Below are positions 8,331 through 34,518 of a stretch of 34,573 bases of DNA, in pieces (positions within the stretch are counted from its first letter, which is position 1; the number at the start of each line of letters is the position of its first letter). Source of the stretch: a virus; the IMG/VR virus record IMGVR_UViG_3300045988_140174, positions 1 through 34,573 of that record; one strand, given 5' to 3'. A model generated the notes under the pieces. The model searched no databases. It was not told where the DNA came from and saw nothing but the letters and a program-made list of their open reading frames with translations. The translations under genes were made by a program, and so were the position numbers.

Positions 8331-8369
8331 TAAAAAAAGTTGGCCCATAATTAATCCTTATGGGCCAAC
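8331..8369 (-). terminator. Rho-independent terminator between the baseplate block and the fibre genes.
   Basis: Perfect 11-bp inverted repeat GTTGGCCCATA ... TATGGGCCAAC (about 8339-8369). On the plus strand it is preceded by AAAAAAA, which gives a U-run after the hairpin on the minus strand. Coordinates +/-1. Confidence 0.7.
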
Positions 8370-8373
8370 GTTA

Positions 8374-11700: not shown

Positions 11701-12001
11701 CCCACAACACTGGACAATTAGCCGTAAATTTTTCAACTTCATTGCCCTTTTCGTCATTAGCAGTTTGATGCCACTAAGCTTTTATTTCTGTTGATATATA
11801 AGGACTATATCGACGTTCGCCATAATTAATAAATACATAACGAGTGTTATACACTCCATCGCCATTAATATTCCCAGTAGAGGAGCCATCTGGAGCGCGT
11901 TTAGCTATGGCTTGTTCCATTTCATAACGATTGGTATAAGTTTTATCAAATGTTAAAGCAATTCGTGGATTAACTTTTAAATTACCATAAAATGAACTCA
12001 A
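8753..12001 (-). CDS. Phage minor structural / baseplate protein, about 1082 aa, TTG start. Contains in-frame TAG codons.
   Basis: TTG at 11999-12001 sits 8 nt after AAGGAGG and directly after the TAA of the preceding gene. Fragments 11774..12001, 10448..11263 and 8783..9535 are in one frame and end in cta. I translated 9536-10447 by hand: no TAA/TGA, 8 in-frame TAG (9629, 9656, 9677, 9743, 9953, 10169, 10328, 10337). True TAA stop is 10 codons below 8783. 11264-11773 was not hand-checked. Confidence 0.7.
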
Positions 12002-12343
12002 TTAACTCCCCTCCTTTTCGTATAAAATATCTATTAATAAATAAGCATCTTGATTTTCATCTATATTAGTTAATGACATTTCATCAAAATTAATAGATGT
12101 TACTACACCAGAGCCCTAAGTCATATCTAATTCATACAAACCAACTCCACCAATCATTATATAGTCTTGATTGGCATTAAGTCTAAATTTAGTACCTGGT
12201 AAACTTTGGATTCCTAATTTTATAATAGGAGTATAATCATCAAAAATTACTCCTGACATTAATTTAGCTTTAGTTATTGTTACTGGATAATTTTTTTCAT
12301 TTAATTCACCAAAATATCGAAACTAAACAACACTTTTAGCCAT
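12002..12343 (-). CDS. Small hypothetical structural-module protein, 113 aa, 2 in-frame TAG.
   Basis: ATG 12341-12343 with GAGAGGAGA 7 nt upstream; TAA stop 12002-12004. Hand translation: MAKSVVxFRYFGELNEKNYPVTITKAKLMSGVIFDDYTPIIKLGIQSLPGTKFRLNANQDYIMIGGVGLYELDMTxGSGVVTSINFDEMSLTNIDENQDAYLLIDILYEKEGS. Confidence 0.6.
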
Positions 12344-12359
12344 TACTCCGTCTCCTCTC

Positions 12360-15170: not shown

Positions 15171-18100
15171 TGATACATACCCGCCTCTATCTCTTTAGTA
15201 AACCCTCTATCGAGAGCTAATATAAATTTATTCCAAGCATCTTTTACTGCTTCAATTAATTCACGCATCTATTTATCTTTTGATACAGTATCATTAATAT
15301 CATAATAGTCATAAAATCGTGTTGATAGGAATCCTCTAAAAATAGTAAGATATTTTTCATATTCAATCTAATAATATTCAGCTTTTGTTTTATAATTTTC
15401 TTGTTTATTAGTGTAAATAGTAATTAAAAATTCTGCCTATTCAATCGCGTCTTTATAAGCATTTATATCTTTGTTTAAAACATTTTCAATATACCAATAA
15501 AAAATTCCCATACTTGTAATTGAAGAATAATTTTCATTAGGGTTAGATAATTTAGGTAAATTAGTAAATAATTCAATTAATAATGGATCAATTCTATATT
15601 CATTAAATAATTGAGTATTACACCAATAGCACAATTCTGAAATTTTTGCCAATCCTTTTAACATTAATAAATGCTGATATCTTACTTCATTAATAGTAGG
15701 ATTTGTTTTTGAAATATTTACCTTATATTCTGACAAATTATTTAAAGATTTTATTTTATCCTAAATAAAAATTTTATTGCCTAAAGATTTATAACTTCTT
15801 AATAGAGTGGTATATAATCCATCTAAATTAGAATTATATAACTCTAATACTGATTTTAATGTACCATAATCAGATAATGCATTATCTCCACCAGTATTAT
15901 TAGAAATAAAATTAGAACGTGTTTTATAAGTATAATTTATAATATTATCAATAATATTGCGTTCAGGATGTTTTTTAATATCTTCACTATCACTTTGATT
16001 TTCTTCACTTAAAACAGTAGAAATAAATTTATTATTAGAATATAAATTAAATGTTCCCTATTGTAAATTAGCAAGTTTAGTAGCAGTTAAATATGGTTCA
16101 ATAAAATTATAATTATTATTTTTCTAATCATTCGCTGATACTGCTAATTGATTAAAATAATCAATAAAACTTTTTATTAAATAATCTTTTTCATTCAAAT
16201 AATAATCTACATTTAAATCATAATTATTTAAAGTAGCTTGTTTATAAAAATTATTTTCTAAATAATAATATTTTCCCAGAGTTAAGAAAATATCATTTTT
16301 TTCAATTTTTCCTACTAATTTATAGGTTGAAGTATTTATGCCATTACTAACCAATAGCTATTGATAATTTGTAATAGTAGAATTATAATTAGTTATTATA
16401 GTATTAGCATCTAATAAACGAGAAAATCCAGTATTCATATAATTATTTGTAGCATTTGGAGTAATTAAATCAATAATAGCATCTAAAACATATTTATATC
16501 CATTTTCTTTTACTGGTAAACAGGTATTATCAATAATATATAATAGTTTATTAATTTTAGCTATACGAATATTAGTGGCTTCAAGATTATAAGTATTCTA
16601 ATCAAATTCAATACTATTAAAAATTGAATTATCTCCTTCATCTAAATTATTTCCTTCAATATCTAAAATAATATTACGATTAGAACTAGATCGAATAGTA
16701 CTTTGTATAGAAGACCCTAATTTAGTTATATAAGAATCTGAATATTTACGATTATTCTTCTCATAATAATAGAATGAATATAATAATCGATCTCTAAAAG
16801 CTAAACAATATAAAAGATCTCTTTTTCTATCATTCCACCAACCTGAGAATGTAATAGATTTCTATAAATAATAATTTAACTTAGATGATAAACTAGTACT
16901 ATCATTTATAATTAAATTAGGCCAATTTAATTCTTTTGCTGACTAACAAACATAATCTAATTTATCTGCCGCTAAAATAAATTTAATAATAGAAGAACTG
17001 TCTTCATCTTCCAAGCCATTCTATTCAGTACCGCCTTGTAATTTTAAATTTAAGGCAGTATAATCAGAAGCAATAGTATTTCCTATATCAATTAAACTAG
17101 ATACCTAAAATAAATCCTTTAGAGTATCCATATTGTCTAAATCAATTTTAGTATTTTTTAATTTCTCAATTAAATCAATACAAGCATCAAAAGGATATAA
17201 AAAATTATCATTATCATCAGTGCCAATAAAATTAATAAATGCTTTAGTATCAGAATCTAAATTATCAGTCTATCCTAATAATTTATTTAAATTTCTACGA
17301 GATTGTTTTAAACGTCCATAATACCATAAAATTTCATGTATGCCACCCAAAACTTTTTGATATAATAATTTATCTAAAGCATCATCGTCATCTTGGTCTT
17401 TTATAATAGCTAAATATCCTATTATAGTATCATATAATCCTTGAATAGAAGTCCAAGCATCAATATAATAATTCATTTGAATCCGGCGCGCCTCAGCTTC
17501 AGAAGTATTAGTGCTACCTAACCCTGCTGAAACTCTATTATAATGATTTTTTATATTAGTTAAAATCTCAGTAATATTAATTGAAGATTCAATTTGCTCA
17601 AGATTATCTTTTATTGAATTATAATTAGAAGAAGTAACATTTGTTAATTGATTAGCTATACTCTAATAAATTAAACAATATAACCACAATGCTGCTTTAT
17701 ATCTATAAACAATTGCATTATAACCATCATCAGTAAGAGTTTGACCATTTTTATCAGTGATTTCATAAATTTGATTTAATAAACCACCATAATCATTCGC
17801 AATTGAATTAGCATTTTCAATAGCAGAATTCTAATTATTATAAAGAGATTGTAATAAAGAATCTAATTTATTTAATTTAGAATTAATACCTTCTTTAGTC
17901 GGCTGCTAAATTAAATCTAATAAATCCTATTCTTCTTCATCCTATAATTTTAATTCAGTATACATACCTTTATTTATCTACATTCGCTTAATTGTTTTTA
18001 ATACTTCTTTTTTTATTTCAGCTTTCTTCTCTTCAGTAATATTATTTGACCATAAATCAACAATATTAAAATTCTTTAATGCTGCTGGTTTCATAGTATT

Positions 18101-21100
18101 TAAAATTTCATTAATAATATTGCGATCCTGCCAATTAATTATTCTCTCTAAACGAGATTGATGATCATTTAAATCTTCATAAGGAATATTATTTGATTCT
18201 GATAAACCATTTAATAAAGTATTATAACTGCGAGTTAAAGTTAAATATTTCTAAAAATTATTATCAGCTTCTGCTATTAATTCATAATTACGATATAAAG
18301 CTCTTAAAAATTCTGATTGCTATATATAATTATCTTTCGCGCGTCTTGTTTCACTATCATTTACTTCAGTATAATAATCTAAAATCTCTAACTAAAATGT
18401 TGCTTCCGCGATTAATCCTGTGCCAATTTTAATTATATCAGGAGATTTTAAATTAGAAAAATATCTATTATCATCATACTCTAACTCTACAGAATTATTA
18501 AAACGAATATAAAAATCTTTAATCTAATCTTGCTATACAATTGATTTAGCAATATTATTTTCATCTACAGTCCAATCAGTATGATAAAATTCAGGGACTG
18601 GATTATAGTCTTCTTTATTCAACCAACGAATAGCTGTTGATAAATAATCTTTTTCATGAATTAATTCATTATTATTTTTTATAGTTTTATAGAATGTAGC
18701 ATTTTTTAATAAATCTTCTAAAGATTTTATCTAAGCGTCATAAAAATCATTAATAGCTTTATGATCAAACATAATAGCAGTTTGTAATTTTTTTTCTCTT
18801 AAATCATTTAATGCTTTAATTTGATTATTAATATAATCTTGATATTTATCTGTAGCCCCTTTAGGAATAATATAAACATCCTTAACTAATTTATATTTTC
18901 CATCTTTTTCAACATACAACTCTAATTCATCATTTAAATATGTCTTTTTATTTTTAATTAAAACATAATATAATCCAACTTCTTCGTCATATTGAATGTC
19001 ATGTAATTTTTCATAACGATATTTTTCATTGATATAAAATGAAGTGTCAAAATCGTCAATCACTGATTTCCAATAACAGTCATAATATTGACCGGTCTTT
19101 ACTCCAAAAATATTAGTACGCTATGTTGGCATCCAAGAATCAAATTGAGGGAAATACTCGTACATCTAAAATACACAAAATTCATCATTTACATTAAAAT
19201 ATTCTCTTACTTTTGGAGTTAATTCATCTATTGGATAGGGCTATCCAAAAGGAGAAACAGAATATAATAAATACTGACTACCAAAATTTTCTTCATAATC
19301 ATATTTAGAATAACTACCATCTGCTTGAGGTAGACACACATGCGTTGCTTTCCCATCACTAATAGCCCAAGGCACTCCAGATGGATTAGCCGCAGTTATT
19401 TTTGCCCATCCTTCAGGAGTTACATATTCATAAGGGACCGCATAAATAGGTATTAATTCACGTACTTTTATATGTAATTGTTCTAAATTTAAAACTTTTA
19501 ATTTGTCTCTGGTGTAATTATGGAATTGAGTATTAATATAAGACATAATGTTGCCAGGCTCAAATCCTTTGGCAGCTAAAGTATCATAAATTTTTTCAAA
19601 TGCAGAATTTACATCTAATTTATTTAATACAATTCTCTCATTTAAAGAACTCAAAGCATTTCTAAATTTATTAATATCTGACTCAGTTAAAGACTAATCT
19701 TTCTATTTAGTAACTAAAGTATCTAATTCAGTTAATACTGGATTAACTCCCACAAACTAATGGCTTAAAATCGTCTTTAATTTTACTTCAGTAATTGCAT
19801 CAAAATTTCCGTATCGTACTCCTTGATATTGGCACTCTAAAATACCTACTGGATGAGTGTATTCATCATTAGGTATTCTAATACGACTTATTTTTCGGCT
19901 TGAATTATTATAAGTATATGAGCCAGTAATTCCAATTAAAATTTCATCTTCTGTCTTTTCTGATATATCTCCGTAAGTTAAGAAAATACTAGATCCAGGC
20001 AATAAATCTTGAACAGAAAATTGACTAATATTATTAGATTCAAAATCTATAATAATATCCATGCCAGGCTCATATTCATTTAAATAATAACTGCGCCATA
20101 ATGAAACATATTTACTAACAATATCAGATTTTATAAATCCGTATTTTAATAAATTTTCATAAGTTAAATCCGCTATTTCAACACATTGTCCGGTAAAAGA
20201 ATGAAGCATGCGCCCTAGTGTATCTACTGGAGACATAGAAACATTCATAATACGAATGATAAAATTCCCTTCTGGCCCAGACCGGAATAATTTAGGCTAT
20301 CCATTATTTAACCAATCTAAGACTTCCATTTTAAAATTGCGCTCTTTATGAATATTATTTTCAATTAAATCACAAGGATTTTCTAATATTTTTTCCATGC
20401 GATTAAAAAATTCTGTACTGTTTTTAATATCAGCATGGTCAGTACAAGTTCTAATATAGTCTTGAATTTCTCTATCATAAAATAAAATTTCATCATCCAT
20501 TTGGTAAGAAATTAATCCACTAATAGGAAATTCTTTATAAGCAACTTTTCCATTTCTGAAAATAAAGGGAAATTTATTGCCAATTGTATTTGTTTTTTGT
20601 TCGAGTATTGTAGTTTTAAATGAAGATACTTTAGGATTGAATTTTACTTTTAAAACTCTATCTCCATCATATAAAAAGATATCTTCAAAATCAACTGAAA
20701 CAGGTTCACTTTCAATGCGAGAAGAATAAATACCAAACAAATTATATTGAATTATACCATAAATATATTTAACACCTTGTTTAACGGTATAATCATTATA
20801 ATCTATTAATGATGGTTTCATATTTTCAAGTTTAAATCGTTTTAATTCTAACCAAGAACGATATTCATCTTCTTCGCTGGCCCTCACTAAAATGTATTGA
20901 CCAAAATAAGTATCTTCTTGTTTATCTACTTGGTATTCAATATTAGAATCATATCCTAAAATATGTAAATATTCTTTAGCTAATTCAGTAGATAAACCAG
21001 CTGTAGTAATAATATTTTGACATAAGTTAATTAAACTCTAATCTGTAACAATCTGGTCTAACTCTGTTTCATCAACATTTATAGAATCCTATAAATAATT

Positions 21101-22435
21101 TAAATAAGAATTTACTCTATTCTATAAAATAATATTTAAATTTTTATATCCTTCAAATGAAGTAGCAATATATACTGTAGTATTCCATAAAAATTTACTA
21201 AATAAATTATAATAATTTATTTCTTCTTTTTCTTTACCAATATTTTCTATAACAGAACCTAAATATTCTCCTAAATATAAATCAAATTCTTTTGATTCCA
21301 TAATTAAAGACTCTAAAATACCAGTAGAAATACCACACATATCATTTAATAATGAAACATTATCTCGTAAATATATTCTATACTTTTCTAAAATATTGAC
21401 AACAAATCCTGACTCCTAAATTTGATCAACCCATTCTTTAATTTGCGGGTTATCTGAACTATTTGTTCCTTGATAGAATCGTTTTAATTTTGTCATTAAA
21501 TTTTTAGAATAATTATAATAAGTATTAATACGAGTCATTTCCTTAATAACATTTTCTTGACGAACTACTCGTTCAATACCATGAAAATTAACATTAATAC
21601 ATCCACTATTTGGGTGAGGTTCTGTTGTGATTGAAATACTTTTACTAGGGGCTAATAAAGTTTCTGCTGTTACTCTATACATTGGGCTTGATGCCACATA
21701 TCCATTTAAAGTTGTAACAGTATAAACTAATTTATAAACTTCACTAGTTTTAATGAAACTACTTAAAACGGCTGAATCAGTAGATATTCCATATTCAATA
21801 TCATTAGAATTATTATGTAATAATTCACCAGTAGTATAATATAATTCCCCTTCTTCTGTATAAAATGAAAAATTATAAGAATATACTTTTTCACTCTAAT
21901 CAAAATCAGAAGATAATTCATACAAACCGAATAAATTATTATTAAATAAATTAATACTATCAATTGAATATCCTTTAACTGAAATTTTAGGCTCCTGAAT
22001 ACATTTAATAATACCAATAGTAGAATAGTATCCTGTTAACTTTTTAATAACATCAACTGTAACAGTTTCTTTCGTGTCAGGGTCTTCTTTTGTTTCAGTC
22101 TATGTATATTGTGAAATATAAGCTAATTGTACTTTGTAATACTAGCCTTCATTTAATAAGGCTCCCTAAGAAGGAGGTATAGTAAATGTAACAGTAGAAT
22201 TAGCAGTATTAAAATCCATTGATTCAATTGGATTAAATAAATAAGTATTTGTTGAAGCAGTTTTTAATCGCAAAACAAATCCAACAAATTCTTTATCATT
22301 AACTGCGGCACTCGCAGTAAAAGGAATTGTAATCTAAATATCCTTTAATACTTTCGTGTCGCCTGTTTCAATATAACTCTTACAAAAAGCAGGTAAAGTA
22401 CCTGCTATTACAGGAGGATATAATCTTTCAGGCAT
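15167..22435 (-). CDS. Giant tail-tip / baseplate protein, 2422 aa, in the position usually held by the tail-associated lysin / hub (Tal). Contains in-frame TAG codons.
   Basis: ATG 22433-22435 preceded by AAAGGAGAA; TGA stop 15167-15169. Twelve ORF-track fragments (15437..15736 through 21416..21697) are all in one frame, and the stops checked are cta. Full hand translation found about 41 in-frame TAG and no TAA/TGA before 15167. N-terminus MPERLYPPVIAGTLPAFCKSYIETGDTKVLKDI... Confidence 0.75.
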
Positions 22436-22461
22436 AGTCATTCTCCTTTACCACATAATTA

Positions 22462-25362
22462 TTATTTATTTTCTAATGCTTGGATACGTTTTATTAAATT
22501 TGGAATCGTTGTTTGCTATAATGTAGTGAAACTTGTTTCCAAAGTTTTAACGCGTGATTCTAATGTAGCACATCTATCAATTAAAGTTTTAATAGCAGAA
22601 TTTGAAGATAGATTGCATTGGACAGGGACTCCATTTAAAAAATATACTGGATTTTCAGAACTTCCAACATTTAATAAAGCTTCATGCTCAGCATCCACCA
22701 AATTCTAAGCATTCTAAGCTGAAGTCGCAGTTTTTATCCAAGCTTCTCCCTAATCATTTATTTTAAATATATTCTTTTTATCATCAAAAGCGTATAAACC
22801 ATATTCTTCTAAATTATTATTATTTTTAAATGTACCCATTAGTACACCTTTAGTCTAATTACTATTTAATTGTCCTACTGTAGTAGAAATTAATTGTAAA
22901 GTTTCGTCATTAAAATCAATAACTGCCCCTTGTAAATCATTCCACATTGCAATAGGATAATTATTTTTAATCACTACAATAGGCTATATCCATACTATTT
23001 TGTCTGTTTTATTCTATGCCTATACATAGAGACAAGTTGAATTATTATCTTGAGAGGAAAATACAGTAGGCGGAATAATTATATTATTTTCAAATTTCCA
23101 CTATGTTAAAATTTTGTTCTCATCATTTTTAATATTATTCTGCAAGCTCCAATTTAAATTTTCAGATACAGTTTCAAACCCATCCATTTCAGTTGTATAT
23201 TTAAAAATTTGATAATTAGTTTTTTCATATACCGGTTTTTTACCAGTAATATCATAAGTTATTATAGAGCATCCATCAGCACAAACATATTCTGGATTAA
23301 ATGTAGTAGGAATACTAATATATCCCTCTAAATTATTATTATTATAAGTTCCTTTTACTTTAACAACTAATTTTGATAAAAGATTAATATCAGATTCTGT
23401 TAATGCTTCATGAATTTTAATAATATTATCCACTAATGAAATCTTATCAGAATTTAAAGAATTATAATACCATTCATAAGTTAATTCAATATCAGAACGT
23501 CCTTGCCAAGTATAATCATATAAATTAGCAACTATTCGATACTCCTTATCTTGAGAAATAGGACAAATAACTTTACAATCTTTATACTAATCTTTAATTT
23601 TTTCTTGTAATGATAATTGAAGCACACAATTAGCCCCAGAAGAGCCGCTATTACCAAATAATAATTCAATTGAACTGGTGTATATCTAATTATTAATTTC
23701 AATTTCACATTTAATTGTATTATTTCTAAAAAGTGGATTATATAAAGAGTTAATTCTAAAAGGTATATAATATATTTTAGTTGTAGGATTTAAATAGTCA
23801 TACATAGGAGCAGTATTTTTATCAGTATTTAATATATGCTCAAACTCATACTCATCATGCTTATTTATCTTTCCATTTTCCACTGGAATAATCATTGTTT
23901 TTTTAGAAGGTAGCATATATCGTAATCGAACACCGTTTGTCAATGTTGTAGTCTTACTAGTATCTTTGCTATTAAATTCTACCGCAATATAATGGATTTT
24001 TTCTCCATTAGAACGAGCTAATAATTGGTTATCTTGTCCATATATATAAAATGTATTATTGTTATTATTCGTAAATAAATTTAAACCAGCTAATAAACCA
24101 ATATCTGGATTATATAATGTATTTGTATAAGAACATGACTAAGAATATCCTAAAACTTCTCTTGTTCCTATTTTACCTTTAAAATAAATCCTATATGGTT
24201 GAGTAAAAATCTAATCTCCTAAACGAAGAGAGGTAGAAATTGTATTACCCGCAAGAATAGGAATCTCATCATAGCTGCCATCTGCTCTTACACCTAAGCG
24301 CCACCAACCTTGACCAAATACCGAACTGTTTTCAGTTACATCTTTATCATAAGAATATAACCATATTTCTGCCCCAGTAAATGTAGCCAAAGTCCCCGAA
24401 GTCATATCTATAACTCTAAACCCCATTGTAACCTTACGCTTTTCTTCATCTTGAGAGGGAGTGAACTAATATCTATTGCTACCTCTTGGATATAAATAAA
24501 CGCCAATATTACTATCAGTTGTAATATCTGAAAAATTACTTTTATAATATCCTAAATATAAATTTATATTTTTAAAAACAATTGAAAAAGAATCTGAACT
24601 ATCAATTTTATTATTATCACTATCGTAAAAATTGCCATTTTCCCATAATTCAATTTGGATATCATTAATAATTAAATTAGTAACATCTATATCAAAATAT
24701 TGAGAAGTATAACCTCCTGTTTTATATGCACTTAAAAATAACATATCTTTATTAGAGGATATTGTTGTGGTCTGTCGAGTAAATGTTTTTAATTCTTTTG
24801 TGGTCTAATCTTTTCCACTTAATATAATACGAATACCATAAGTACCTTTATTTAAAGTTTTTGTGCCATTATATAAATCAGCCATTAAATTATAAGAAAT
24901 ACGTAAAGTTGTATATCCTACTAATTCATTATTATTTATATAACTTTGAGGGCCCATAATAGTTTTACTAGATTCTCGACCCTCAGAAGTAGGAATTACT
25001 GTAATTTCTTTACTCTAATTAAAAAGCTAATTAGCTGCATAAAAAGTTTTAGAATCATCTTTACCGATTACTTCATAATCACTAATTACACGTCCAGTAA
25101 TCAATTTCTTACCAGAAAAATCACCTTGTGGGATTAATACATAAACTTCTTCATTAAGAGCATAAGATTTATCTTTTTCATTAACAAAAACTGTTAATTT
25201 AGCTCCTTTATAATTTACAATATATTTCTATGCTCCTTCAATACTTTCAGGAACACTTTCTATTACTCCAACTATTGTCTAGTCAAATGGTAAATTCTAT
25301 AATCGAGCAGATACAATTGTGTCTACTGATCGGAATATTTTTTCATTTAATTCATTAGACAT
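22462..25362 (-). CDS. Tail/baseplate structural protein, 966 aa, in the distal-tail-protein (Dit) position directly after the TMP. Contains in-frame TAG codons.
   Basis: ATG 25360-25362 preceded by AAAAGGAGAA, with an in-frame TGA 7 codons upstream; TAA stop 22462-22464. Fragments 24466..24744, 24211..24426, 23686..23943, 23101..23433 and 22516..22701 are in one frame. Full hand translation reproduced each fragment's peptide and found about 20 TAG. C-terminal coiled-coil-like tail ATLESRVKTLETSFTTLxQTTIPNLIKRIQALENK. Confidence 0.75.
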
Positions 25363-25436: not shown

Positions 25437-25469
25437 TAAAAAAATGGCGAGGTAATTAAACCTCGCCAT
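25437..25469 (-). terminator. Rho-independent terminator immediately after the TMP stop codon.
   Basis: Perfect 10-bp inverted repeat ATGGCGAGGT (25444-25453) / ACCTCGCCAT (25460-25469) with a 6-nt loop. On the plus strand it is preceded by A7, which gives a U-run after the hairpin on the minus strand. It lies 6 nt below the TAA at 25475-25477. Confidence 0.7.
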
Positions 25470-25474
25470 TTAAA

Positions 25475-28400
25475 TTAAATAGTCTTTCGACTAGCATATT
25501 GACTTGCTTCATTCTCCATCATTTCAAATGCTTCCATAATTTCATTACTATCAGTCACATTCGGGAAATCAGCATTAATAGAAACTTGTTGCATAAATTC
25601 TTGTGCAATTCTATCAACACCAAGAGAAGAAGGAATAAGATTAGATAAATAACTTACAATAGTCTAAACGTTTAATCCTATATTTTGTAATATAGTAGAA
25701 ATATCTAAACTATCCGTTAAAGCAGTATCAATGTTTAATTCATTATTACTCATCCAATTTTCAATTTGTTTATTCATATCTAATTGATCTAACATATCTA
25801 AATAAGAAAGTTGAGAAATATACTCTGGAACTTCTGCTGTTTTATTAAAACTCTCAGAATTACGCTAAGTACTAATTATATTATTTGCTGTTGCAGTTGA
25901 ACGAGAATCAATAGCATTTTCATATTTACCATAATCAATACTATTCATTCCAGATAAAGCTGCTACCATTTCATTCATAGTTTTTACTAAAGCTTCATTC
26001 CGCTTAATTGCACTATCAATTTTAGAAACATAAATAGATTCCCAATCACTCGCTGCTTTAATAACACCATTAAATGATTCTGTAGCATTTTTAACAATTT
26101 TTTCCATATCTGCTACAGCTTTATCTGATTCACCAGTAATTTTAATTGACCATCCAGAAGCCGTATCAGCAAAACTTCCTTCAATACCTGCTGTACTATT
26201 AATTTCTTTAATTTTATTTAAATAATCATCAAGCAATTTATTAGAATCAGCAACATAATTATCATGGCTTTTCCAAAATGCATTAAACATTTCATCTAAT
26301 GTAGAATATCCTGTTTTTAATGCCAAAGTAGTCTAATTAAAATTTTCAACTAATGCACCAGAACTATCTTTATAATATGTTACAAATTTTTCATTAGCAT
26401 CTTTACTATTTTTAAATACTTCTTCATATTGCTAATGAATCTATTGCATACGTTCATCATAATATTTTTCTAAATCAGCAGCCTATTTCTCGTATTCAGC
26501 TTGAGAAATTTCTCCTTGAGTAAATGATAGCTTTATTGCTGTTAACTTTTCTTGATAGTCAGATTGTAATTGAAGAATATTATTTTCTAATGTTTTTAAA
26601 TATTCTTCATTAGCTTTTTGATAAGCATTTAATTTATCTTCATATTCTTGTTCAGCTTCAGCTATTTTGTCTTCATTAGCACTATATACATATCCCCAAT
26701 TACCATTATTATCACGAGTCAAACGAACAGTTTCATTAGAATTTTGAACATCTTCCAATTTCTATCGTGCTAGCTCTAATTCATATTTAGATTGTAAAAT
26801 CTTTAAATCATATTCACTAATTTTAGAACCATCTTTTAATTTTTTATTTAACTCGTCTTGTAATTTATTTAATGCTTGTTTATGAGGAATAATATCAGTA
26901 TCATCAATAGAACCTTCAATTTGACGTCTTAATTTATTTAATTCATAAGTTTTATCAGCATCACTTAAGTACTAATTATTTAATTCATTGGCCCTAGTAA
27001 TAGCATCTTGCAAAGCTTCAATAGAACCATAAATTGGAGATATACCGTCTTCAAATTCTTTGACAATATTATCCATTTCTTCTTCAAAGATATCGCGTGC
27101 TCTTTCTAAAGCTTCTTGCCAAGTATCTAAGAAATTTTCTTCAGCACTATGGACTTGCTCATCAATTTCTTTTAAACTATCACTCCATTGTTTAATTCCA
27201 ATTGAATCTCCATTAGCAACAGCTTTATCATACTATTCTTGAGCATTAGCACGCATTTCTTTTAATGCCTCTACTTGCTATTTAGCTCCAGCAAGATTAT
27301 TAATACTGTTGTTCATTAATGAACGATTTAAATTACGCAATACTAATTTTGATTGCTCATTTAATTGAGCTCCTAATAATGAAGTAATATCTTTAACACC
27401 TTCAAGAATATTCTAATAATGTTCAAATAAATCAATTTGGTCTTGAACATCCTCACTAAATTGATTAAAACTATCAAGGACTTTTTCTTGAATGGTTGCT
27501 CTCATTTCAAGCAATTCCTAATTGGCTTCTAAAATACTAGAACGCCATTCTCGAATTTGATCAATTTCATCTTCAGTGAAATTCTTAGCTTTTAAATCAT
27601 CAACTGTTAATTTATCAAGTTCTTCAATAGAATTAATGCCATGATTATTTAATAACTCTAGTAAACCGTCAGAATAAGTTTTAGTTTTTTCTAAAGCATT
27701 TTCTGCTTTTTCCCCAATTAAAGCAATAGCCTCAGCAGCAGAATAAGCATCATCTTCAATTTTACTTAATAAATAATCAAGATACTCTAACTCATCATCT
27801 TTAACAGCAATCTTAATTTCAATTTTATACTAAGTCTTTTCAAAAATTATATCAGCTAATTCAGTTTGTAAATCATATAATTTTTCCAATTCATCTTGGC
27901 GTAAATTATTAGTTTCTTCATACTGTTCTAAAGCTTCAATAAAATCATCATAAGCTTCTTCAGCCGCCTCATCAGCATCTTCATTTTTACCAATAGACGA
28001 GTTGTATTTATCAATCTGGCGCTTCATAATTTCATCATAATTAGTAATAACACCAGTTTCATCAAATTCGGCGCCATAAGATGCTATTAAAGCTTTATCT
28101 TCATCCCAATATTTATTAATTTCATCAAGATATTGATTCTATAAATCAATCATTTCATCATATTTTTCAATTTCTTGATCCATTAATTCTAATTTAGAAG
28201 TACCAAACGCCCGCTCTTTAGCTTTGGCTAAATGCTCCATTACTTCTTCTAAATCTTCAATTTTTTGTTTAATTACATGATAACGCTCAATTTCATCTTT
28301 ATATTCTTTTGAAGGAGGAGGGGTATAACTGCTTCCACCACCTCCGCCACTATTGTTAGTGGCAGTGGGATTAGTAGTTAAATCAGTTGTTTTCCCACCA

Positions 28401-31400
28401 TACTCTTTACCCGACCAATCAAGAGTTTTAACTGTTGGCACATTAACCATAGTCGTAGTATCAATAGGAACAACAGATGGAGGATCTAAATGATGTCCAT
28501 GTTCATCAATATTACTAGTATAAACAACTGCTTCTTCGTGTGAAGTAACAGGAGTTGGTTCACTTTCAATTTCTGCATCAAATCCCATACTAGCAACAAA
28601 AGCTTGAGCTTGTTCTGCAGTAAAACCAAAGGCTGAAATCAATGTATTTAAAGAAGCAATTGCTTCAGTTGTATCAAATTTTGGATCAAGCTATAATCCA
28701 TTCGCAGCCTCTTGTATCTAAGTAAAACAAGTATTAATTTCTGACTAAACGCTACTTAAAGAATCTCCAAAAGCTGCTTTTAAATCATCTCTACCACTAT
28801 TAGCTATATTTTGTAAAACTTGATTTACCTATTCCCCAGTTGTATAAAATGAACGCTAAGTTGCAATATTTAATTCCGCTAATGCTTTTTGATTACCTTT
28901 TGCTACATCGGGCATTAATTTAGCAACTTTACGAGCATATCTTTTATCTTCTTTATATAATTTTTCAAATGTATCTTTAGATACTCCAGCTAAATCTGAT
29001 AAAGCGTCAGAATTCTATGCAACAAATTCATCAAAAGCTGCTTCATTTTCTGCATTATATTTTTTAGTAAGACTGGTAGAATCATTCATCCAATCTGAAA
29101 ATGCTTTTACTTTATCATTACATTTATCCCAAGAGCCAGCTAATTCATCAACTAGTTCTTGTCCATGAGTGCCTAATGAGCCCATTTCATCTCGTAATTC
29201 ATTAATCGCTCCAGAATCGCCTTCAACAGCCTGTTGTAATTTTCCAAAATTCTCTGTTAAATTATTAGCATCTCCAGCCCAAGCCTTAAAATCATCTTCA
29301 GACATACCGAACATATCAGCGAATGATTCAGAATTACTCGTCAAAAATTCTTGTAATTTTCCAATTTCAGAGGGTAAAGCACTGCCCTATCCCATATTTT
29401 CTAAAGCAGAAGCTTGTTCCTGAATTTTATCTTTATCAAAATTCTATTCATCCCAAGAAGGCTTTAATCGGCTAGCAGCATCAAAAGCTTTTTGGCTATA
29501 AATTTGCTCATCAAAATAATTATCTTGCTAACTCAATCCCCATTGACGAGACTACTCTGCCGCAAAATTCTTCAATATAGTATCATAATCAAAAGTAACT
29601 TCAGAGTTTTCAACAGTTCCGCCATTTTCATCAGTCAATTTTACTGGTATTGTTGTATTACCGCTAGTAAAATCTTGTAACCAATTATCTCTTAATTCAC
29701 TTACTGAGTATCCTTGCTATGATAATAGATTTAAAATTTCAGATTCAGTTAATTCATTACCACTATTACTACCACGTGATGCAATTATTTTATTTTCATA
29801 ATCTATAACATCTTGACTAATTAATTCTCCAATACCATTTCGATATTTTTCATCATATCTTGATAAATCTAGTCCTCGTGAAAGTAATTCATTTAAAACA
29901 TCATTCTAATAAGAATCAGCTAATCTACTTGTTTCAGCAGTTAATTTTTCTAATGCTTCTCTAGTTTCGTGATTTGAAGTAATTAATTTAGCTGTATTTT
30001 CATCTAAACCTGCTTTATTTATTAAGTCTTCTTTACTAAAATCAAAACTAGAATCTTTCATAGCAGCTTTAACTACTTTATTTATTTCTGATGTTGTTAA
30101 TGTATCAGTCGCATTAACAGTATGATAACGATATTCATTAGGTCTAAACTGATATTTTTCTCGCTTTGTTCCTACAACTATGTTTTCATTTTTCTTTGAA
30201 ATTTCTCTAATTTTTGCTTCCAGCTATACCTATTCATCTCTATTGCTCTAAGAATTAACAGCTGTTTGAGCTTTATTCTATTTATCAAGAGCCTGCTATT
30301 TAATCTTATTCTAACCAGATTCAGTTAAATGCTAAATATTATTAACATCATAATACCAATCTTCACCCTTTTTAAGTTGAGAATCAGCATCTGCCATTTT
30401 ATTATAATTATCAATTAAATCTTGAACTTCATTATTTACATCATATAAAGCTTCTCGCCATTCAGTAGTACCATATTTTAAATCTTTAAAAGCATCATAT
30501 TTACTTGATAAACCATCTAAAGATGAAGTTACTTTCTATACTTCAGAATTAACATTATCTAAATTACTTTGTAGTGTTTGTAAATCTTCATTAGATTGTT
30601 TAAGTTCAGTATTAAAAGATTGAGAACGTTTAACTAATGTATAAATAGCAAATCCAACAGCCGCAATTATTGCAGCAATTAATATAAATTTAGCAATTAA
30701 CGGTAATAAACTTACCTGAACCCCTTTTAAAGCAATATTTAATTCTTGAGTCGCTGCAGTTAATCCTTTAGTTGCTAAAGTATTAGTTATTTTAGCAGCT
30801 GTTTCTTTATTTAAACCTAACTCCATTAAATTAGTCTACAATGCATTTAAAGTTTTCTTTTTTGTTGAATCTGAAATTGTTTCATTATTTATTTTATTAG
30901 CAGTACTTTCTAAATAAGTAGCTGCTGTTTCTTTTAATTTAGCTATTTCTAATCCTTCTGTAATAGCTTTTTCAGTTAAAATGGAAGCATTATGCTAATC
31001 TCTAACCTGTTTTAAAAATTGAATTCCTGTGGCCAAACTGTCAATACCACTTTTAACCATAAAACTAAGACTACCAATAGAAGTAAGAATAGCAACAGCT
31101 TTTTCCCACCCAGACATATCAGGATCTTTAATACTACTGATTAAACTATTAATAGAAGAAATCGCCATTCCCGCCGATTGGGCAAATGAAGCCATTGACA
31201 TAAATGCTTCAATACCACCAACTAAATGTTTAGGTTTAAAGTTTTCAACTTGTTTATTTAACTCTTCTTGTTTTTGCTTAGCTTTTTCTTGAGCTTTTTG
31301 CATTTTTTCAAATGACTAAACAACTTTTTTAATTTCATCGTCTCCTACGCCCATGCCTCTTAAAGAAGCAACTAACTAATCTTGAGATAACTTACTACTT

Positions 31401-33820
31401 TGTATAATCTAAATATATTGACGCATTTTAGCCATACGTTTATCTGTACCAGTCTCATCCCAAGGTATTGATGCAATTTCTTTCTCTAAGCTTTGCAGTA
31501 TTCCTAAATCCTAAATATTTTTAGGTAAATTTTCACGGAATAAATTAAAATAAGTTTCAGCTTTAGTGGTTGCAATATCAAAATTATTTAATTCTGGACT
31601 AAATGTCCCCGCGGCATAAGCCTGCTATGCTGATTCATTAGTTAATTGTGTTAATTTATCTAGCTATGATGTAACTTCAGTCGTCATATCATTAAATAAA
31701 TTAGCCACAGGAGTAGTAGCATCCGCATTCAGCCAAGCCTATAAAAGATTATTTACAAGATTATCATTTAATGTATCGAGTTTATTATAATAAGGCTCTA
31801 TTTCATCATATAAATCTTCATATTTTTTTCCCAAACTAGCTTCTCCTTCATTCCCAGGATTATTATGCTAGCTAGCTGAACTCCAAATATCTTCCATCTA
31901 ATTATTATAAGCTTTTGAGATACCTTTTTTATCGCTTACCATTGTATCTTGAGCATCATTTATGATTTTTGTATAAGTATCAATTTCTTGACCTAATTTG
32001 ATAAGCTAATCTCCCTGCTACTGGATACCCTATTTTTCTGTCTCCCAAAATGATTTCTCAGCTGCCGTCATTCTTTCTGAAGCTATAGCTATTTTATCTT
32101 TCATTTCAGAAACACGTTTAGAATTTAATAAACTCTATTTAGATTCTTCATCTAAATTATCACCTTTTTTAGATAAATAATTAGAAGTCTATTCATTTAT
32201 TTGAGTATGAATTTTAGCATAAGCTTTATCAGCTCCACCAACCAATATTTGAATATTGCTAATAACATTTCGTAAAGCAGGCTCAATTTTTGAAGCTAAA
32301 CTCTATTCAACAATAGCTAATATTCCTATTAGTACTGGTTTAAGGCCTCCTATTTTATCAATAAATGAATCAACACCATCAACAGTATCGGCTAAAAAAT
32401 CAGTTAATTTAATAAAAAACTTATCATCAATTAAATCTTGATATAATCCCTAAAATGAAGCCTTCAAACGCTTATTAGCGGCTTCCCAAGACTCTTCATA
32501 AATTTTCTATTGCTCAGTTAATGTTCCAGTAGCATTACGAGCAGTTTCGAGATTTTCTTTCATGAAATCCCATTTATCCATCAATGCAATTAATTGAGTA
32601 TATTGGCGGACACCAGCAACAGTTTGAGCTAATGCCACTTTAGCATCTTTAGAAATTAATGGATTTCCTTCAGCATCAAATGAATTCCATTTTTCGCCTA
32701 AATCATCAAGGATATCATCCATCTCTCGCAATCCACCATCTGCTGTTTTAATAGAAACACCAACAGCTTCAAGAGCTTGAGAATATTTTCCTAATGTAGT
32801 ACCATCTTCAAGAGTTTTTCCCAATTCTAAATCTTGAATACGAGCAAATAATGTTTTAAATGCAGTACCAACCACATCAGCAGATTGACGAGTTGTAGCT
32901 GTTACAGTTGCTAAAGCAGAAGTAGCATATTCATAACTTAAACCTACTGTATTTGACACAGCCGCGAATTTTTCTAATCCAGCCGCAATTTCATCTGTAC
33001 TAGAAGCAGTAGCAGCACCCAACGCCGTCATAACATCAGCATAATATTCTAATGATTGTGATCCATCATAGAAATTATTCCAAACAGCAGTTAATTGCTA
33101 AGAAATTTTATCGGCGCTTTCACCAGCGGCATTAGCCATTTTAATTGTAACAGCAGTTCTATCTTCTACTTCTTTATCAGATAAACCCTGTTGATAGTAA
33201 ATTAAAGAAGCATCAGTATAATTTAATGTAGAAGTACTTAATGCCTTTGCCGCTTTATTTGCTTTATCAGCAAATTTATCCATATAATCAATATTATGAC
33301 CGGTAACAATTCGAATATCATTTAATGATCTGTTTAAATCCTAAGCATAACCATAAGCCCCTTGTAATGCTCCCATTACACTATGAATCATACTTGAAGA
33401 AATCTACCATTTAACTGTATTTTTAACAGTAGTTAAAAAATCCTATAAACGAGCATTTAAGCTAATCATTGGCTAATCAGCCGCAGCTATGGACTAAGCC
33501 AATTTTACAAATGCTTGCTATCCCGTTACTCCCGCATCTAATAAACTTTTAGATAATTTAGTTACATTTGTCTAAGATCTATTTAAACTTGCATTAAGTT
33601 TACTTAAATCATAATTACCAGTAGTTGTATTATAGGCTTCATTTAAATGAAATGCTAACTATCTGGCTGCTTCAGAAGCTTTTTGCATCTATTCTGGTTT
33701 AAGTCCTAAATCAGTACTATATGAAAGTTTAGTTAATAATTGTTGTAATTCTTGAATAGACTATTTTGCTTGAGTAGTATTTGCAGTAAAATCTAATGCA
33801 ACATTTAATTGTTTTGCCAT
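25475..33820 (-). CDS. Tail tape measure protein (TP901/phage-min-tail family), 2781 aa. Contains in-frame TAG codons.
   Basis: ATG 33818-33820 with AAAGGAG 8 nt upstream; TAA stop 25475-25477. All nine ORF-track fragments from 25865..26326 to 33098..33283 are in one frame and each ends in cta. Hand translation of the whole gene reproduced every fragment peptide and found about 75 TAG and no TAA/TGA. Hallmark TMP segment: ...ATSALATVTATTRQSADVVGTAFKTLFARIQDLELGKTLEDGTTLGKYSQALEAVGVSIKTADGGLREMDDILDDLGEKW... Also extensive coiled-coil sequence, a GGGGGSSYTPPP linker and a hydrophobic helix. Confidence 0.85.
30628..30709 (-). other. Predicted transmembrane/hydrophobic helix inside the TMP (SLLPLIAKFILIAAIIAAVGFAIYTLV).
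   Basis: An uninterrupted hydrophobic run of 27 residues inside fragment 30536..30826, flanked by KG..QV and KRSQS. Position calculated from the ORF-track fragment. Confidence 0.5.
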
Positions 33821-33851: not shown

Positions 33852-33888
33852 AAAAAAAATGGGTGTGAGAAATAATCTTCTCACACCC
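33852..33888 (-). terminator. Rho-independent terminator between the 174-aa gene and the TMP.
   Basis: Perfect 11-bp inverted repeat GGGTGTGAGAA (33861-33871) / TTCTCACACCC (33878-33888) with a 6-nt loop. On the plus strand it is preceded by A8 (33852-33859), which gives U8 after the hairpin on the minus strand. Confidence 0.7.
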
Positions 33889-33935
33889 ATACACTTGATT
33901 ATTCCTATTTAATTTTAAAAAATTAAATAGTTTAA

Positions 33936-34460
33936 TTATCCCAACTTGGTCAAAACATCTTTTAACAATCCTAATGTTTCAGGATTCTGAATATCATTAG
34001 TTAATTGTTCCATATCAAATGTTGTATCTTTATAATCAGTTGAAATAATATCTAAAATACCTGCCGCAGAATTTTTATACTCATAAATTGAATGAATAGT
34101 TTCTGCTACCCAACTTTTAATTTGAGCATATTCTCCTGGATTAATTTCTCCAAATACTTTAGCAGAAAAACCAGAGCCAACTACTAAATCATATAATTTC
34201 TTTGGGTCTTCTTTTTGCTTATCAGTAAAACTTACATTAGTATAAACCATAATCATTTTTAAAATAGTATGAAGATACACACGAGCAGGATTATAATAAC
34301 CATTCTTATCAATAGAATCATTAATAATCTCTGAAATAAGATTTAACTTATCTCCAATAGGAAGATAATCTTTAACTTCAATAATCTAATCTCCCCATTC
34401 AAAAGTTGATACTTCTGTATTTTTATTTAAATTTAACTTTGAAAATGCTACTTTTGCCAT
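33936..34460 (-). CDS. Hypothetical protein, 174 aa, immediately upstream of the TMP. Its position fits a tail-assembly-chaperone-like gene, but the sequence was not recognised. One in-frame TAG.
   Basis: ATG 34458-34460 with AAAGGAGG 8 nt upstream; TAA stop 33936-33938. One in-frame TAG at about 34382. Continuous with ORF-track fragment 33936..34280. N-terminus MAKVAFSKLNLNKNTEVSTFEWGDxIIEVKDYLPIGDKLNLISEIINDSIDKNGYYNPARVY... Confidence 0.75.
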
Positions 34461-34489: not shown

Positions 34490-34518
34490 ATTATACTAAA
34501 AATTTAGTTTATTGTCAA
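34490..34518 (-). promoter_or_regulatory. Consensus sigma-70/sigma-A promoter (TTGACA - 17 nt - TATAAT) driving the 174-aa gene.
   Basis: Minus-strand reading TTGACAATAAACTAAATTTTTAGTATAAT. The -35 element is the plus-strand revcomp at 34513-34518 and the -10 at 34490-34495. The spacer is exactly 17 nt. The -10 ends about 30 nt upstream of the ATG. Confidence 0.6.

What the first reader, a model, noticed from the sequence alone, without database searches (positions are those of the whole stretch)
25475..33820. Exceptionally long tape measure protein (2781 aa) predicts an extremely long tail
The TMP spans 8346 nt as a single frame once TAG is read through. TMP length scales with tail length at roughly 0.15 nm per residue in characterised siphoviruses. 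This gene therefore predicts a tail of the order of 400 nm, near the upper end of what is known. It also carries a hydrophobic helix (30628-30709) and a Gly5-Ser-Ser-Tyr-Thr-Pro3 linker, and it is flanked on both sides by terminators.
Basis: partly seen in the sequence, partly recalled or inferred. Interest (0 to 1): 0.6.

Follow-up and report, generated by a model that had tools for sequence, protein, structure and literature searches.

The report
Long recoded phage tape measure gene
This is a real 2781-residue tail tape measure gene of an uncultured gut phage that reads the TAG stop codon as glutamine; it predicts a tail of about 400 nm, which is ordinary for this phage group, where most relatives have longer versions.

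Summary
On the minus strand (33820 to 25475) there is one frame of 2781 codons with 64 in-frame TAG and no TAA or TGA before the terminal TAA. The chance of this is about 1e-86. TAG means Gln: in four diverged relatives, TAG codons align with TAG or CAA/CAG far above background.

The product is a tape measure protein. It has PF10145, matches TMP PHROGs, and sits after an SPbeta-type tail tube gene. No sheath gene lies nearby.

Ratios from cultured relatives (0.14-0.15 nm per residue) give a non-contractile tail of about 390-425 nm.

"Exceptional" is not supported. Published relatives have 3149-3209 aa (phAss-1 group), 3123 aa (Tsamsa, 440 nm) and 3280 aa (Lactococcus AM4). Among the 133 closest database representatives of at least 2000 aa, 79% are longer, up to 4092 aa. 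P74-26 has a tail of nearly 1 µm.

The hydrophobic helix, the Gly/Pro linker and both flanking terminator hairpins are real and conserved.

One new point: residues ~500-1850 form a recombining mosaic of deeply diverged alleles, in genomes whose upstream head-to-tail genes are 77-100% identical. Total length still stays at 2739-2811 aa, which fits a ruler.

Verdict: new member of a known kind, of modest interest.

The parts
25475..33820 (-). Tape measure protein gene: 2781 codons plus TAA, with 64 in-frame TAG read as Gln
   Evidence: frame and stops. (PF10145, 80.6 bits against a cut-off of 33.2, aa 188-383). (phrog_4211 at 5.9e-44 and phrog_34405 at 2e-43, both 'tail length tape measure protein'). 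(identical to database protein P0122).
32323..33820 (-). Conserved N-terminal module (aa 1-~500). It contains the PhageMin_Tail domain and ends in a hydrophobic segment at aa 486-508.
   Evidence: Identity is 80-99% between relatives, and segment length is 499 ± 1.8 aa in 123 cluster representatives.
28271..32322 (-). Mosaic, hypervariable central spacer (aa ~500-1850). There are at least 10 alleles of block A (aa 500-1050) and at least 5 of block B (aa 1050-1850). Its length is constrained to 1309-1382 aa.
   Evidence: sliding identity of 10-45%. (segment lengths). (alleles and at least 13 combinations). (sharp nucleotide breakpoints). (alleles are colinear and 25-49% identical).
30629..30709 (-). 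Strongly hydrophobic, TM-like helix (aa 1038-1064: LLPLIAKFILIAAIIAAVGFAIYTLVK)
   Evidence: The Kyte-Doolittle mean is 2.68. An equivalent helix lies at aa 1025-1060 in every allele, even though the sequences differ.
28313..28348 (-). Gly5-Ser-Ser-Tyr-Thr-Pro3 linker (aa 1825-1836), at the junction between the variable spacer and the conserved C-terminal module
   Evidence: motif conserved in five relatives. (identity jumps from about 30% to over 80% here). (the preceding ~90 residues are modelled as coil, at low confidence).
25478..28312 (-). Conserved C-terminal module (aa 1837-2781), predicted to be mostly long alpha-helices
   Evidence: length 932 ± 1.1 aa. (identity high to L007/L008 (93-100%), lower to L009/L010 (0.37-0.95 per 100-aa bin)). 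(phrog_339 TMP matches aa 2087-2582). (similar to the C-terminal parts of VRE9_3 and phAss-1). (AF2 single-sequence model, helical, pLDDT only 47.5).
33859..33890 (-). Terminator-like hairpin (14-bp stem, T8) between the upstream 174-aa gene and the TMP start. An AAAGGAG ribosome-binding site lies 8 nt before the ATG.
   Evidence: Nearly invariant in five relatives.
25442..25471 (-). Terminator-like hairpin (12-bp stem, T-run) starting 3 nt after the TMP stop codon
   Evidence: In L010 the stem sequence differs but the same architecture is kept. SPbeta yomI also has annotated stem-loops on both sides.
33936..34460 (-). 174-aa gene directly upstream (phrog_30570). By position it is a candidate tail assembly chaperone.
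   Evidence: phrog_30570, 9e-12. The same family lies upstream of the TMP in Enterococcus phage VRE9_3. There is no Pfam hit. The chaperone role is inferred from position only.
34490..34518 (-). Consensus sigma-70-type promoter (TTGACA-17-TATAAT, 12 of 12 matches) in front of the 174-aa gene
   Evidence: It is conserved in five relatives, and homology begins exactly at the -35 hexamer.

Best explanation
This is the tail tape measure protein (TMP) of an uncultured siphovirus from animal and human gut. Its genome is about 198 kb and it translates TAG as glutamine (code 15). The virion module is of the SPbeta / Enterococcus-phage-VRE9 type.

How it most likely works:
- The protein, mostly alpha-helical, lies extended inside the tail tube.
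- Tube subunits (YomU-family) polymerise around it until its end is reached, so its 2781 residues set the tail length.
- With ratios measured in cultured relatives (0.14-0.15 nm per residue), the tail would be a long, flexible, non-contractile tube of about 390-425 nm.
- The conserved N-terminal 500 aa and C-terminal 930 aa presumably dock to conserved partners: the chaperone and terminator at one end, the tail-tip complex at the other.
- The central ~1350 aa would be a spacer whose length matters more than its sequence. It carries a conserved TM-like helix that probably takes part in membrane penetration during DNA ejection.
- The first TAG is codon 20, so no TMP can be made unless TAG is efficiently decoded. 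Tail assembly therefore depends on the code switch late in infection.

Shown: the frame, TAG = Gln, TMP family membership, synteny, length conservation and the mosaic structure.

Inferred: the ruler mechanism, the tail length, the docking roles and the membrane role.
For: - Frame and chance.
- TAG = Gln: across five diverged TMPs, codons aligned with TAG are TAG (390), CAA/CAG (221), then Glu (110), Lys (94) and Asn (72). Background Gln is 4.0%. The substitution spectrum mirrors that of CAA/CAG. All nine complete ORFs in the window end in TAA or TGA.
- TMP identity: PF10145 scores 80.6 bits against a cut-off of 33.2. There are ten TMP PHROGs among the 12 families matched.
- Synteny: the upstream genes carry YonD_N, YonB, YomW, YomV and YomU_Tube. 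phrog_31155, 4051, 2729 and 30570 occur in the same order as in Enterococcus phage VRE9_3, whose 2673-aa gene is annotated as TMP. No sheath family was found within 10 kb upstream.
- Ruler: 123 cluster representatives at 52-100% identity span only 2739-2811 aa. The middle 1347 ± 15 aa exists as alleles that are 25-49% identical and are reshuffled in at least 13 combinations.
- Calibration: Tsamsa has 3123 aa and a 440 nm tail. 949-group tails are 480-500 nm and the AM4 TMP is 3280 aa.
- The hydrophobic helix keeps its position in all alleles.
- AF2 models of aa 1065-1836 and aa 1837-2781 are mostly helical.
Against: - There is no particle image and no proteomics, so the tail length is extrapolated.
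- The nm-per-residue ratio is not universal. Basilisk (2186 aa, 420 nm) and PBC4 (2251 aa, 430 nm) give 0.19 nm/aa. The same paper reports tails of about 357 nm (Bak1, Bak6) and 200 nm (Bak10) for identical TMP gene lengths.
- Both AF2 models have low confidence (pLDDT 47.5 and 43.7, no alignment), so the helical content is only suggestive.
- No suppressor tRNA was found in the window or in 10-kb flanks of five relatives. The rest of the ~198-kb genome could not be read.
- The conserved Gly/Pro linker, and the two TMP bands (280 and 100 kDa) seen in Tsamsa virions, leave open that the protein is processed. In that case not all residues would count towards length.
Confidence: 0.85

Rival explanations
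1. Only part of the protein acts as the ruler. The protein is cut at or near the conserved Gly/Pro linker. The ~945-aa C-terminal module (about 108 kDa) then works as a separate tail-tip or ejection component. The tail would be shorter than the full-length estimate: about 275 nm if only aa 1-1825 measure.
For: - The linker motif is conserved in all five relatives and sits exactly at the boundary between the variable and conserved regions.
- The ~90 residues before it are modelled as coil (low confidence).
- In Tsamsa virions the homologous-class TMP runs as 280-kDa and 100-kDa bands.
Against: - In Tsamsa the full 3123 aa already give 0.141 nm/aa for a 440 nm tail. AM4's 3280 aa set against 480-500 nm 949-group tails (phiL47, phi949) give about 0.15. 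Using only part of the protein would demand stretches longer than an alpha-helix allows.
- The C-terminal module is itself predicted as long helices. Its length is conserved to ± 1 aa, as expected of a measuring segment.
- None of the five cultured or published TMPs compared (VRE9_3, AM4, Sophrita, SPbeta YomI, phAss-1) has this Gly/Pro motif.
Confidence: 0.12
2. The long frame is not one protein. TAG still terminates, at least partly, and the region encodes many short products or is a decaying pseudogene.
For: - Under the standard code the region breaks into ORFs of at most 174 aa.
- No suppressor tRNA gene was found in the sequence available.
Against: - The frame has no TAA or TGA in 2781 codons (P about 1e-86).
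- The same frame is intact in relatives down to 52% identity.
- TAG positions interchange with CAA/CAG.
- A single PF10145-plus-PHROG TMP match runs across many TAGs.
- Every long ORF examined in the window carries in-frame TAG, while all nine complete ORFs examined end in TAA or TGA.
- Related phages have documented tRNA-Sup(CTA) genes (PMC10607447).
Confidence: 0.02
3. The tail is contractile (a myovirus), so the TMP-to-length relation of siphoviruses would not apply directly.
For: Genomes of about 200 kb are often myoviruses. Only 10 kb upstream of the TMP was inspected.
Against: - The gene before the tube gene is a 242-aa YomV-like protein, not a sheath. No sheath Pfam or PHROG hit appears in any of the upstream genes scanned.
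- The tube is YomU family (SPbeta). The closest cultured TMP relatives include the siphoviruses Tsamsa and the Lactococcus 949 group.
Confidence: 0.03

Closest known systems
Tape measure proteins of phAss-1 and the proposed genus Phassvirus (human gut, TAG→Gln; PMC10607447)
   Same: - Uncultured gut phages that read TAG as Gln, with the TMP heavily loaded with TAG. I counted 110 in phAss-1.
- The TMP N-terminal domain is homologous (33% identity), and so is the C-terminal region (22% over ~1000 aa).
- There is a TM-like helix near aa ~970.
- The authors predict a siphovirus.
   Different: - The phAss-1-group TMPs are longer, at 3149-3209 aa.
- The genome is 136 kb against about 198 kb here.
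- Sequence identity is low, so this is not the same genus.
- phAss-1 lacks the Gly/Pro linker motif.
- tRNA-Sup(CTA) genes are documented there and were not found in the part of this genome I could read.
Enterococcus phages VRE9_1-4, EF1, EF5 and H1 (134-142 kb, standard code), TMP phrog_34405
   Same: - Best cultured match over the largest span: 25% identity over the N- and C-terminal parts, 43% of the query.
- The TMP is of similar size, at 2673 aa.
- The order of upstream families is the same: phrog_31155, 4051, 2729 and 30570.
   Different: - No stop-codon recoding.
- No strongly hydrophobic helix and no Gly/Pro linker by my scan.
- Two extra genes lie between phrog_30570 and the TMP.
- I could not find a published tail length.
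Bacillus phage SPbeta YomI and its virion module
   Same: - Upstream genes hit the Pfam families built on the SPbeta proteins YonD, YonB, YomW, YomV and YomU (tube).
- YomI is a 2285-aa TMP with the same N-terminal domain (22% identity).
- It has annotated stem-loops on both sides, like the hairpins here.
   Different: - YomI is annotated as a putative or lytic transglycosylase in several records. No enzymatic domain was detected here.
- SPbeta uses the standard code and has a 134-kb genome.
Giant Bacillus and Lactococcus siphoviruses: Tsamsa/Sophrita and the 949 group (AM4, phiL47, phi949)
   Same: - Very long TMPs (3123, 3094 and 3280 aa) with measured tails of 440 nm (Tsamsa) and 480-500 nm (phiL47, phi949).
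- These give the 0.14-0.15 nm/aa ratio used here.
- There is a TM-like helix near aa 1065-1110.
   Different: - Only the PhageMin_Tail region is detectably similar (21-26% identity), and it starts about 500 aa further into those proteins.
- Standard code.
Lambda gpH (the ruler archetype) and Thermus phage P74-26 (the longest known tail)
   Same: The mechanism assumed here, that length is set by an extended TMP inside the tube, was established for lambda (Katsura 1987, as cited). P74-26 shows the mechanism scales to nearly 1 µm.
   Different: Neither protein was compared with this one. The comparison is one of mechanism, not family membership.

Membership tests
Phage tail tape measure protein (PF10145 PhageMin_Tail / TP901-type) | PF10145 domain above Pfam's gathering score | tested here: met
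   80.6 bits against a cut-off of 33.2, at aa 188-383. Ten of the 12 PHROG families matched are annotated TMP.
Phage tail tape measure protein (PF10145 PhageMin_Tail / TP901-type) | Gene lies between the tube and chaperone genes and the distal tail or tip genes | tested here: met
   The YomU_Tube gene lies three genes upstream, with a 349-aa gene and the phrog_30570 gene between it and the TMP. Large tail-type ORFs follow. The order matches Enterococcus phage VRE9_3.
Phage tail tape measure protein (PF10145 PhageMin_Tail / TP901-type) | Extended, mostly alpha-helical protein with hydrophobic or TM-like segments | tested here: inconclusive
   The hydrophobic segments are clear. The AF2 single-sequence models are mostly helical, but their pLDDT is only 47.5 and 43.7.
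Phage tail tape measure protein (PF10145 PhageMin_Tail / TP901-type) | Protein length determines tail length | not testable with these tools
   Indirect support only: length is held at 2739-2811 aa across deeply diverged, recombining alleles. EM or genetics is needed.
Phage tail tape measure protein (PF10145 PhageMin_Tail / TP901-type) | Upstream chaperone pair made by programmed -1 frameshift (G/GT type) | not tested
   The 174-aa upstream gene (phrog_30570) is a candidate by position. I did not search for a slippery site.
Phages using genetic code 15 (TAG→Gln) | In-frame TAG codons in conserved genes, aligned with Gln codons in homologues | tested here: met
   Among codons aligned with TAG, 390 are TAG and 221 are CAA/CAG, against a background Gln content of 4.0%. 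There are 64 TAG in this gene, which is 36% of its Gln codons.
Phages using genetic code 15 (TAG→Gln) | TAG not used as a terminator | tested here: met
   All nine complete ORFs in the window end in TAA or TGA.
Phages using genetic code 15 (TAG→Gln) | Phage-encoded suppressor tRNA with anticodon CTA (present in many such phages, but not all) | tested here: inconclusive
   No tRNA was found in the 34.6-kb window or in five ~28-kb relative loci. About 160 kb of the genome could not be read.
Proposed genus Phassvirus (phAss-1, ctckW2, ct6IQ4) | High intergenomic similarity and shared synteny, with a genome of about 133-136 kb | tested here: not met
   The TMP N-terminal domain is only 33% identical. 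The contig carrying this exact protein is 197.7 kb. It is a related lineage, not this genus.
SPbeta-type siphovirus virion module | Structural genes matching the YonD_N, YonB, YomW, YomV and YomU_Tube families, with no sheath | tested here: met
   Precomputed Pfam hits are present on the upstream genes of five relatives. The YomV hit is marked weak. No sheath family appears.
Jade, Sapphire or Agate clades of recoded gut phages (Borges et al., 10.1101/2021.08.26.457843) | Placement within the clade on the large terminase tree | not tested
   Only genome size (~198 kb) and TAG recoding resemble these clades. No terminase gene was available.

The most novel reading that the evidence does not exclude
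The central ~1350 residues of this TMP, which hold the TM-like helix, may be a target of diversifying selection. The pressure could come from injection-blocking or superinfection-exclusion proteins of hosts and prophages. Deeply diverged alleles (25-49% identity) would then be swapped by recombination between phages whose upstream head-to-tail genes are 77-100% identical, under a strict constraint that total length stays within about ±1.3%. That would make this lineage a natural experiment that separates the 'length' function of a tape measure from its 'sequence' function.
Probability: 0.3. Interest if true: 0.55.

Novelty: new member of a known kind. Interest (0 to 1): 0.3.

Why it matters
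As first stated, an exceptionally long TMP, the finding matters little. Longer TMPs are already published for recoded gut phages and for cultured Bacillus and Lactococcus phages, and this exact protein is already predicted in public databases.

Two things are useful.

First, it is a clean, checkable case of code-15 annotation. With the standard code the gene shatters into fragments, as happened in the deposited phAss-1 record.

Second, the population data give natural support for the ruler model. There are at least 10 × 5 deeply diverged alleles of the central spacer, reshuffled in at least 13 combinations, and total length is held to 2739-2811 aa. The data also single out a region that may be under host-driven diversification. 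Because the gene has 64 TAG codons starting at codon 20, TMP synthesis, and hence tail assembly, depends entirely on the late switch of the genetic code.

Tried and rejected
- Translating the + strand of the given coordinates gives junk. The gene is on the − strand.
- A sequence search of the TMP against all PDB chains gave no hit.
- Pfam on the 174-aa, 966-aa and 2422-aa neighbours gave no hit.
- PADLOC on the variable central region gave no hit.
- Tandem Repeats Finder found no meaningful repeat in the gene, so its length is not built from repeat expansion.
- ARAGORN found no tRNA in the window or in five relative loci.
- AF2 without an alignment on aa 1837-2781 and aa 1065-1836 gave low-confidence models. 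I used them only for secondary-structure tendency and ran no fold search on them.
- My first impression was that the central alleles are unrelated sequences, at 10-11% identity in some bins of the global alignment. BLASTP corrected this: they are colinear, deep homologues at 25-49% identity.
- Literature searches for tail lengths of the Enterococcus relatives and for SPbeta virion structure papers found nothing usable. One search failed on term length.
- Host assignment remains unresolved. Relatives sit on contigs binned into MAGs of Ca. Limenecus, Acutalibacteraceae, Clostridia and Bacilli, which is not reliable for phage contigs.

Full report
**1. The observation**

The + strand of 25475-33820 is full of stops. 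The gene lies on the minus strand. It starts with ATG at 33820, preceded by AAAGGAG 8 nt upstream, and ends with TAA at 25477-25475. It has 2781 sense codons, 64 in-frame TAG, and no TAA or TGA.

From the strand's base composition, the probability of 2781 codons free of TAA and TGA is about 1e-86. In 50 shuffles the longest such run averaged 142 codons, with a maximum of 232.

The whole window behaves the same way. All large ORFs are on the minus strand, all become long only when TAG is a sense codon, and all nine complete ones end in TAA or TGA.

**2. TAG is glutamine**

I fetched the DNA of four diverged relatives (58-84% protein identity to the window's TMP) plus one near-identical relative. 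All keep one frame with 59-69 TAG and no other stop.

In a codon alignment, positions that are TAG in one sequence are TAG (390) or CAA/CAG (221) in the others. Next come Glu (110), Lys (94) and Asn (72). Gln makes up only 4.0% of the other codons. CAA/CAG codons show the same substitution spectrum.

TAG supplies 36% of the Gln codons of this gene. The Q-substituted translation is identical to database protein P0122, found on a 197,733-bp contig, so public gene callers already read it this way.

No suppressor tRNA lies in the window or in 10-kb flanks of the relatives, and the rest of the genome was out of reach. The related phAss-1 group has three tRNA-Sup(CTA) genes (PMC10607447).

**3. What the protein is**

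Pfam PF10145 (PhageMin_Tail) matches aa 188-383 at 80.6 bits, against a cut-off of 33.2. PHROGs gives ten 'tail length tape measure protein' families among the 12 matched. The best are phrog_4211 and phrog_34405, whose profiles are themselves 2625 and 2675 positions long.

In the relatives, the 10 kb upstream carries the SPbeta-derived families YonD_N, YonB, YomW, YomV and YomU_Tube. It also carries phrog_31155, 4051, 2729 and 30570, in the same order as in Enterococcus phage VRE9_3, where a 2673-aa gene is annotated as TMP. No sheath family appears.

So this is the TMP of an SPbeta/VRE9-type siphovirus.

**4. Is it exceptional?**

No. Cultured or published relatives have these TMP lengths:

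| Phage | TMP length (aa) | Source |
|---|---|---|
| Lactococcus AM4 | 3280 | |
| phAss-1, ctckW2, ct6IQ4 | 3149, 3150, 3209 |; my count for phAss-1 is a 3155-codon ORF with 110 TAG, |
| Tsamsa | 3123 | |
| Sophrita | 3094 | |
| Enterococcus VRE9_3 | 2673 | |
| SPbeta YomI | 2285 | |

I also searched 1.84 billion cluster representatives with the N-terminal 519 aa. This gave 9588 hits. Among the best 150 (44-89% identity), the 133 of at least 2000 aa have a median length of 2971 aa. Of these, 79% are longer than 2781 aa, and the longest are 4092, 3866 and 3792 aa.

The longest known tail, that of P74-26, is nearly 1 µm.

The protein is long compared with typical TMPs. In a 2026 survey, median lengths ran from about 650 aa to 1868 aa depending on repeat content. 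But it is below the median of its own clade.

**5. Tail length**

| Calibration | Ratio (nm/aa) | Prediction for 2781 aa | Source |
|---|---|---|---|
| Tsamsa, 440 nm / 3123 aa | 0.141 | 392 nm | |
| 949 group, 480-500 nm against 3280 aa (tail and TMP from different members) | 0.146-0.152 | 407-424 nm | |
| Alpha-helix rise | 0.15 | 417 nm | — |
| Basilisk and PBC4 | 0.19 | about 530 nm | |

The Basilisk paper also reports inconsistent tail lengths for identical TMP genes, so the ratio is not exact. My estimate is 390-425 nm, with an outer bound of about 530 nm.

**6. Anatomy and population structure**

There are 123 cluster representatives at 52-100% identity. Their total length is 2739-2811 aa. 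By segment:

| Segment | Residues | Length in 123 representatives |
|---|---|---|
| N-terminal module | 1-500 | 499 ± 1.8 aa |
| Middle spacer | 500-1850 | 1347 ± 14.6 aa |
| C-terminal module | 1850-end | 932 ± 1.1 aa |

Neighbouring structural genes upstream are 77-100% identical between five phages, mostly over 90%. The TMP is only 59-84% identical.

The difference is concentrated in aa ~500-1850, where identity is 10-45% in a global alignment. Nucleotide breakpoints are sharp. In L007, for example, identity jumps from 0.63 to 0.94 at aa ~1050.

At a 50% identity threshold there are at least 10 alleles of block A (aa 500-1050) and at least 5 of block B (aa 1050-1850), found in at least 13 combinations. 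The alleles are colinear, deep homologues at 25-49% identity, with E-values from 1e-16 down to 0. There are no tandem repeats.

Every allele examined has a strongly hydrophobic helix at aa 1025-1060. All five relatives examined keep the motif G3-5..[SD]Y[TA]PPP(P), which sits exactly where the variable spacer meets the conserved C-terminal module.

AF2 single-sequence models of aa 1065-1836 and aa 1837-2781 are mostly helical. Their confidence is low, with pLDDT of 43.7 and 47.5.

**7. Flanks**

Both terminator-like hairpins are on the coding strand and are conserved. In L010 the downstream one has a different stem sequence but the same form. SPbeta yomI has annotated stem-loops in the equivalent places.

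A perfect TTGACA-17-TATAAT promoter precedes the upstream 174-aa gene. It is conserved, and homology begins exactly at the −35 hexamer.

My inference is that the upstream terminator lowers TMP transcription relative to the tube gene. This fits the stoichiometry of a few TMP copies against hundreds of tube subunits. Alternatively, it may be overridden by late antitermination. Neither was tested.

**8. Mechanism and rivals**

The best-supported reading is a classical ruler TMP (confidence 0.85).

- Processing rival (0.12): cleavage at the Gly/Pro linker, so that only part of the protein measures. The motif's conservation and Tsamsa's 280-kDa and 100-kDa TMP bands keep this alive. The Tsamsa ratio and the AM4-versus-949-group ratio both rest on full TMP length and argue against it.
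- 'TAG still stops' or pseudogene rival: the evidence in sections 1 and 2 argues strongly against it (0.02).
- Myovirus rival: disfavoured by gene content (0.03).

**9. Novelty**

This is a new member of a known kind. Its closest published relatives are the phAss-1 group, but it is not that genus: the N-terminal domain is 33% identical and the genome is 198 kb against 136 kb.

Genome size and recoding resemble the Jade, Sapphire or Agate clades, but I did not test membership. The host is unresolved, because relatives are binned with MAGs of several Bacillota lineages and Ca. Limenecus.

The one feature I did not come across in the papers I read or searched (I made no dedicated literature check for it) is the recombining central spacer that varies in sequence but not in length.

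Noticed in passing
window 28271-32322 (− strand; TMP aa ~500-1850); compared with L003, L007-L010 at 10001-~18400: The middle of the TMP is a mosaic of deeply diverged alleles (25-49% identity), with at least 10 × 5 allele classes in at least 13 combinations. The upstream head-to-tail genes of the same phages are 77-100% identical, mostly over 90%. Total length is nevertheless held at 2739-2811 aa.
   Followed up: yes
window 34490-34518 (− strand): There is a perfect sigma-70 consensus promoter (TTGACA, 17 nt, TATAAT) in front of the 174-aa gene upstream of the TMP. It is conserved in five relatives, and sequence homology starts exactly at the −35 hexamer.
   Followed up: partly
L003 8268-9317 (just beyond the window's right end); equivalent genes in L007-L010: The ~330-360-aa gene between the tube gene and the 174-aa gene is only 20-27% identical between phages whose flanking genes are 90-99% identical. 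It looks like a second swap-in cassette. It has no PHROG hit.
   Followed up: partly
window 15167-25362 (− strand): Two large genes directly downstream of the TMP (966 aa and 2422 aa) have no Pfam hit. The 966-aa one also has no PHROG hit; the 2422-aa one was not scanned against PHROGs. They vary together as a block: 98% identity between L003 and L008, and 40-55% to the other relatives. Their variation is independent of the TMP allele. They are probably distal tail or receptor-binding proteins.
   Followed up: partly
window 1-15194 (− strand): There are further very large ORFs under code 15: at least 1846 aa (running off the window start), 1209 aa and 936 aa. The 936-aa protein hits phrog_32343 and a 'tail protein' family, phrog_1887. 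The whole window therefore looks like one long tail and baseplate module.
   Followed up: partly
whole window; L003 953-9885: TAG use is uneven. It makes up 36-56% of Gln codons in ORFs between 8375 and 33820, but only 11-20% in ORFs 1-8263 and 33936-34460. In the relatives, four upstream genes (311 aa, YonB-like, a 195-aa gene and the YomU tube gene) have no TAG at all.
   Followed up: partly
window 33891-33930 (− strand): An AT-rich perfect hairpin (CTATTTAATTTTTTAAAATTAAATAG) sits just before the GC-rich terminator upstream of the TMP. It is conserved in all relatives. Its function is unknown.
   Followed up: no
L011-L016: TMPs with 48-55% identical N-terminal domains lie on contigs binned into MAGs of Ca. 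Limenecus, Acutalibacteraceae, Clostridia and Bacilli, from human-associated, rabbit and sheep gut samples. The family is widespread in animal guts, but binning does not fix the host.
   Followed up: no
L001 (phAss-1, OQ749652) 5246-14713: The deposited GenBank record annotates the phAss-1 TMP region as many small 'hypothetical protein' CDSs under the standard code. Read with code 15 it is one ORF of 3155 codons with 110 TAG.
   Followed up: yes
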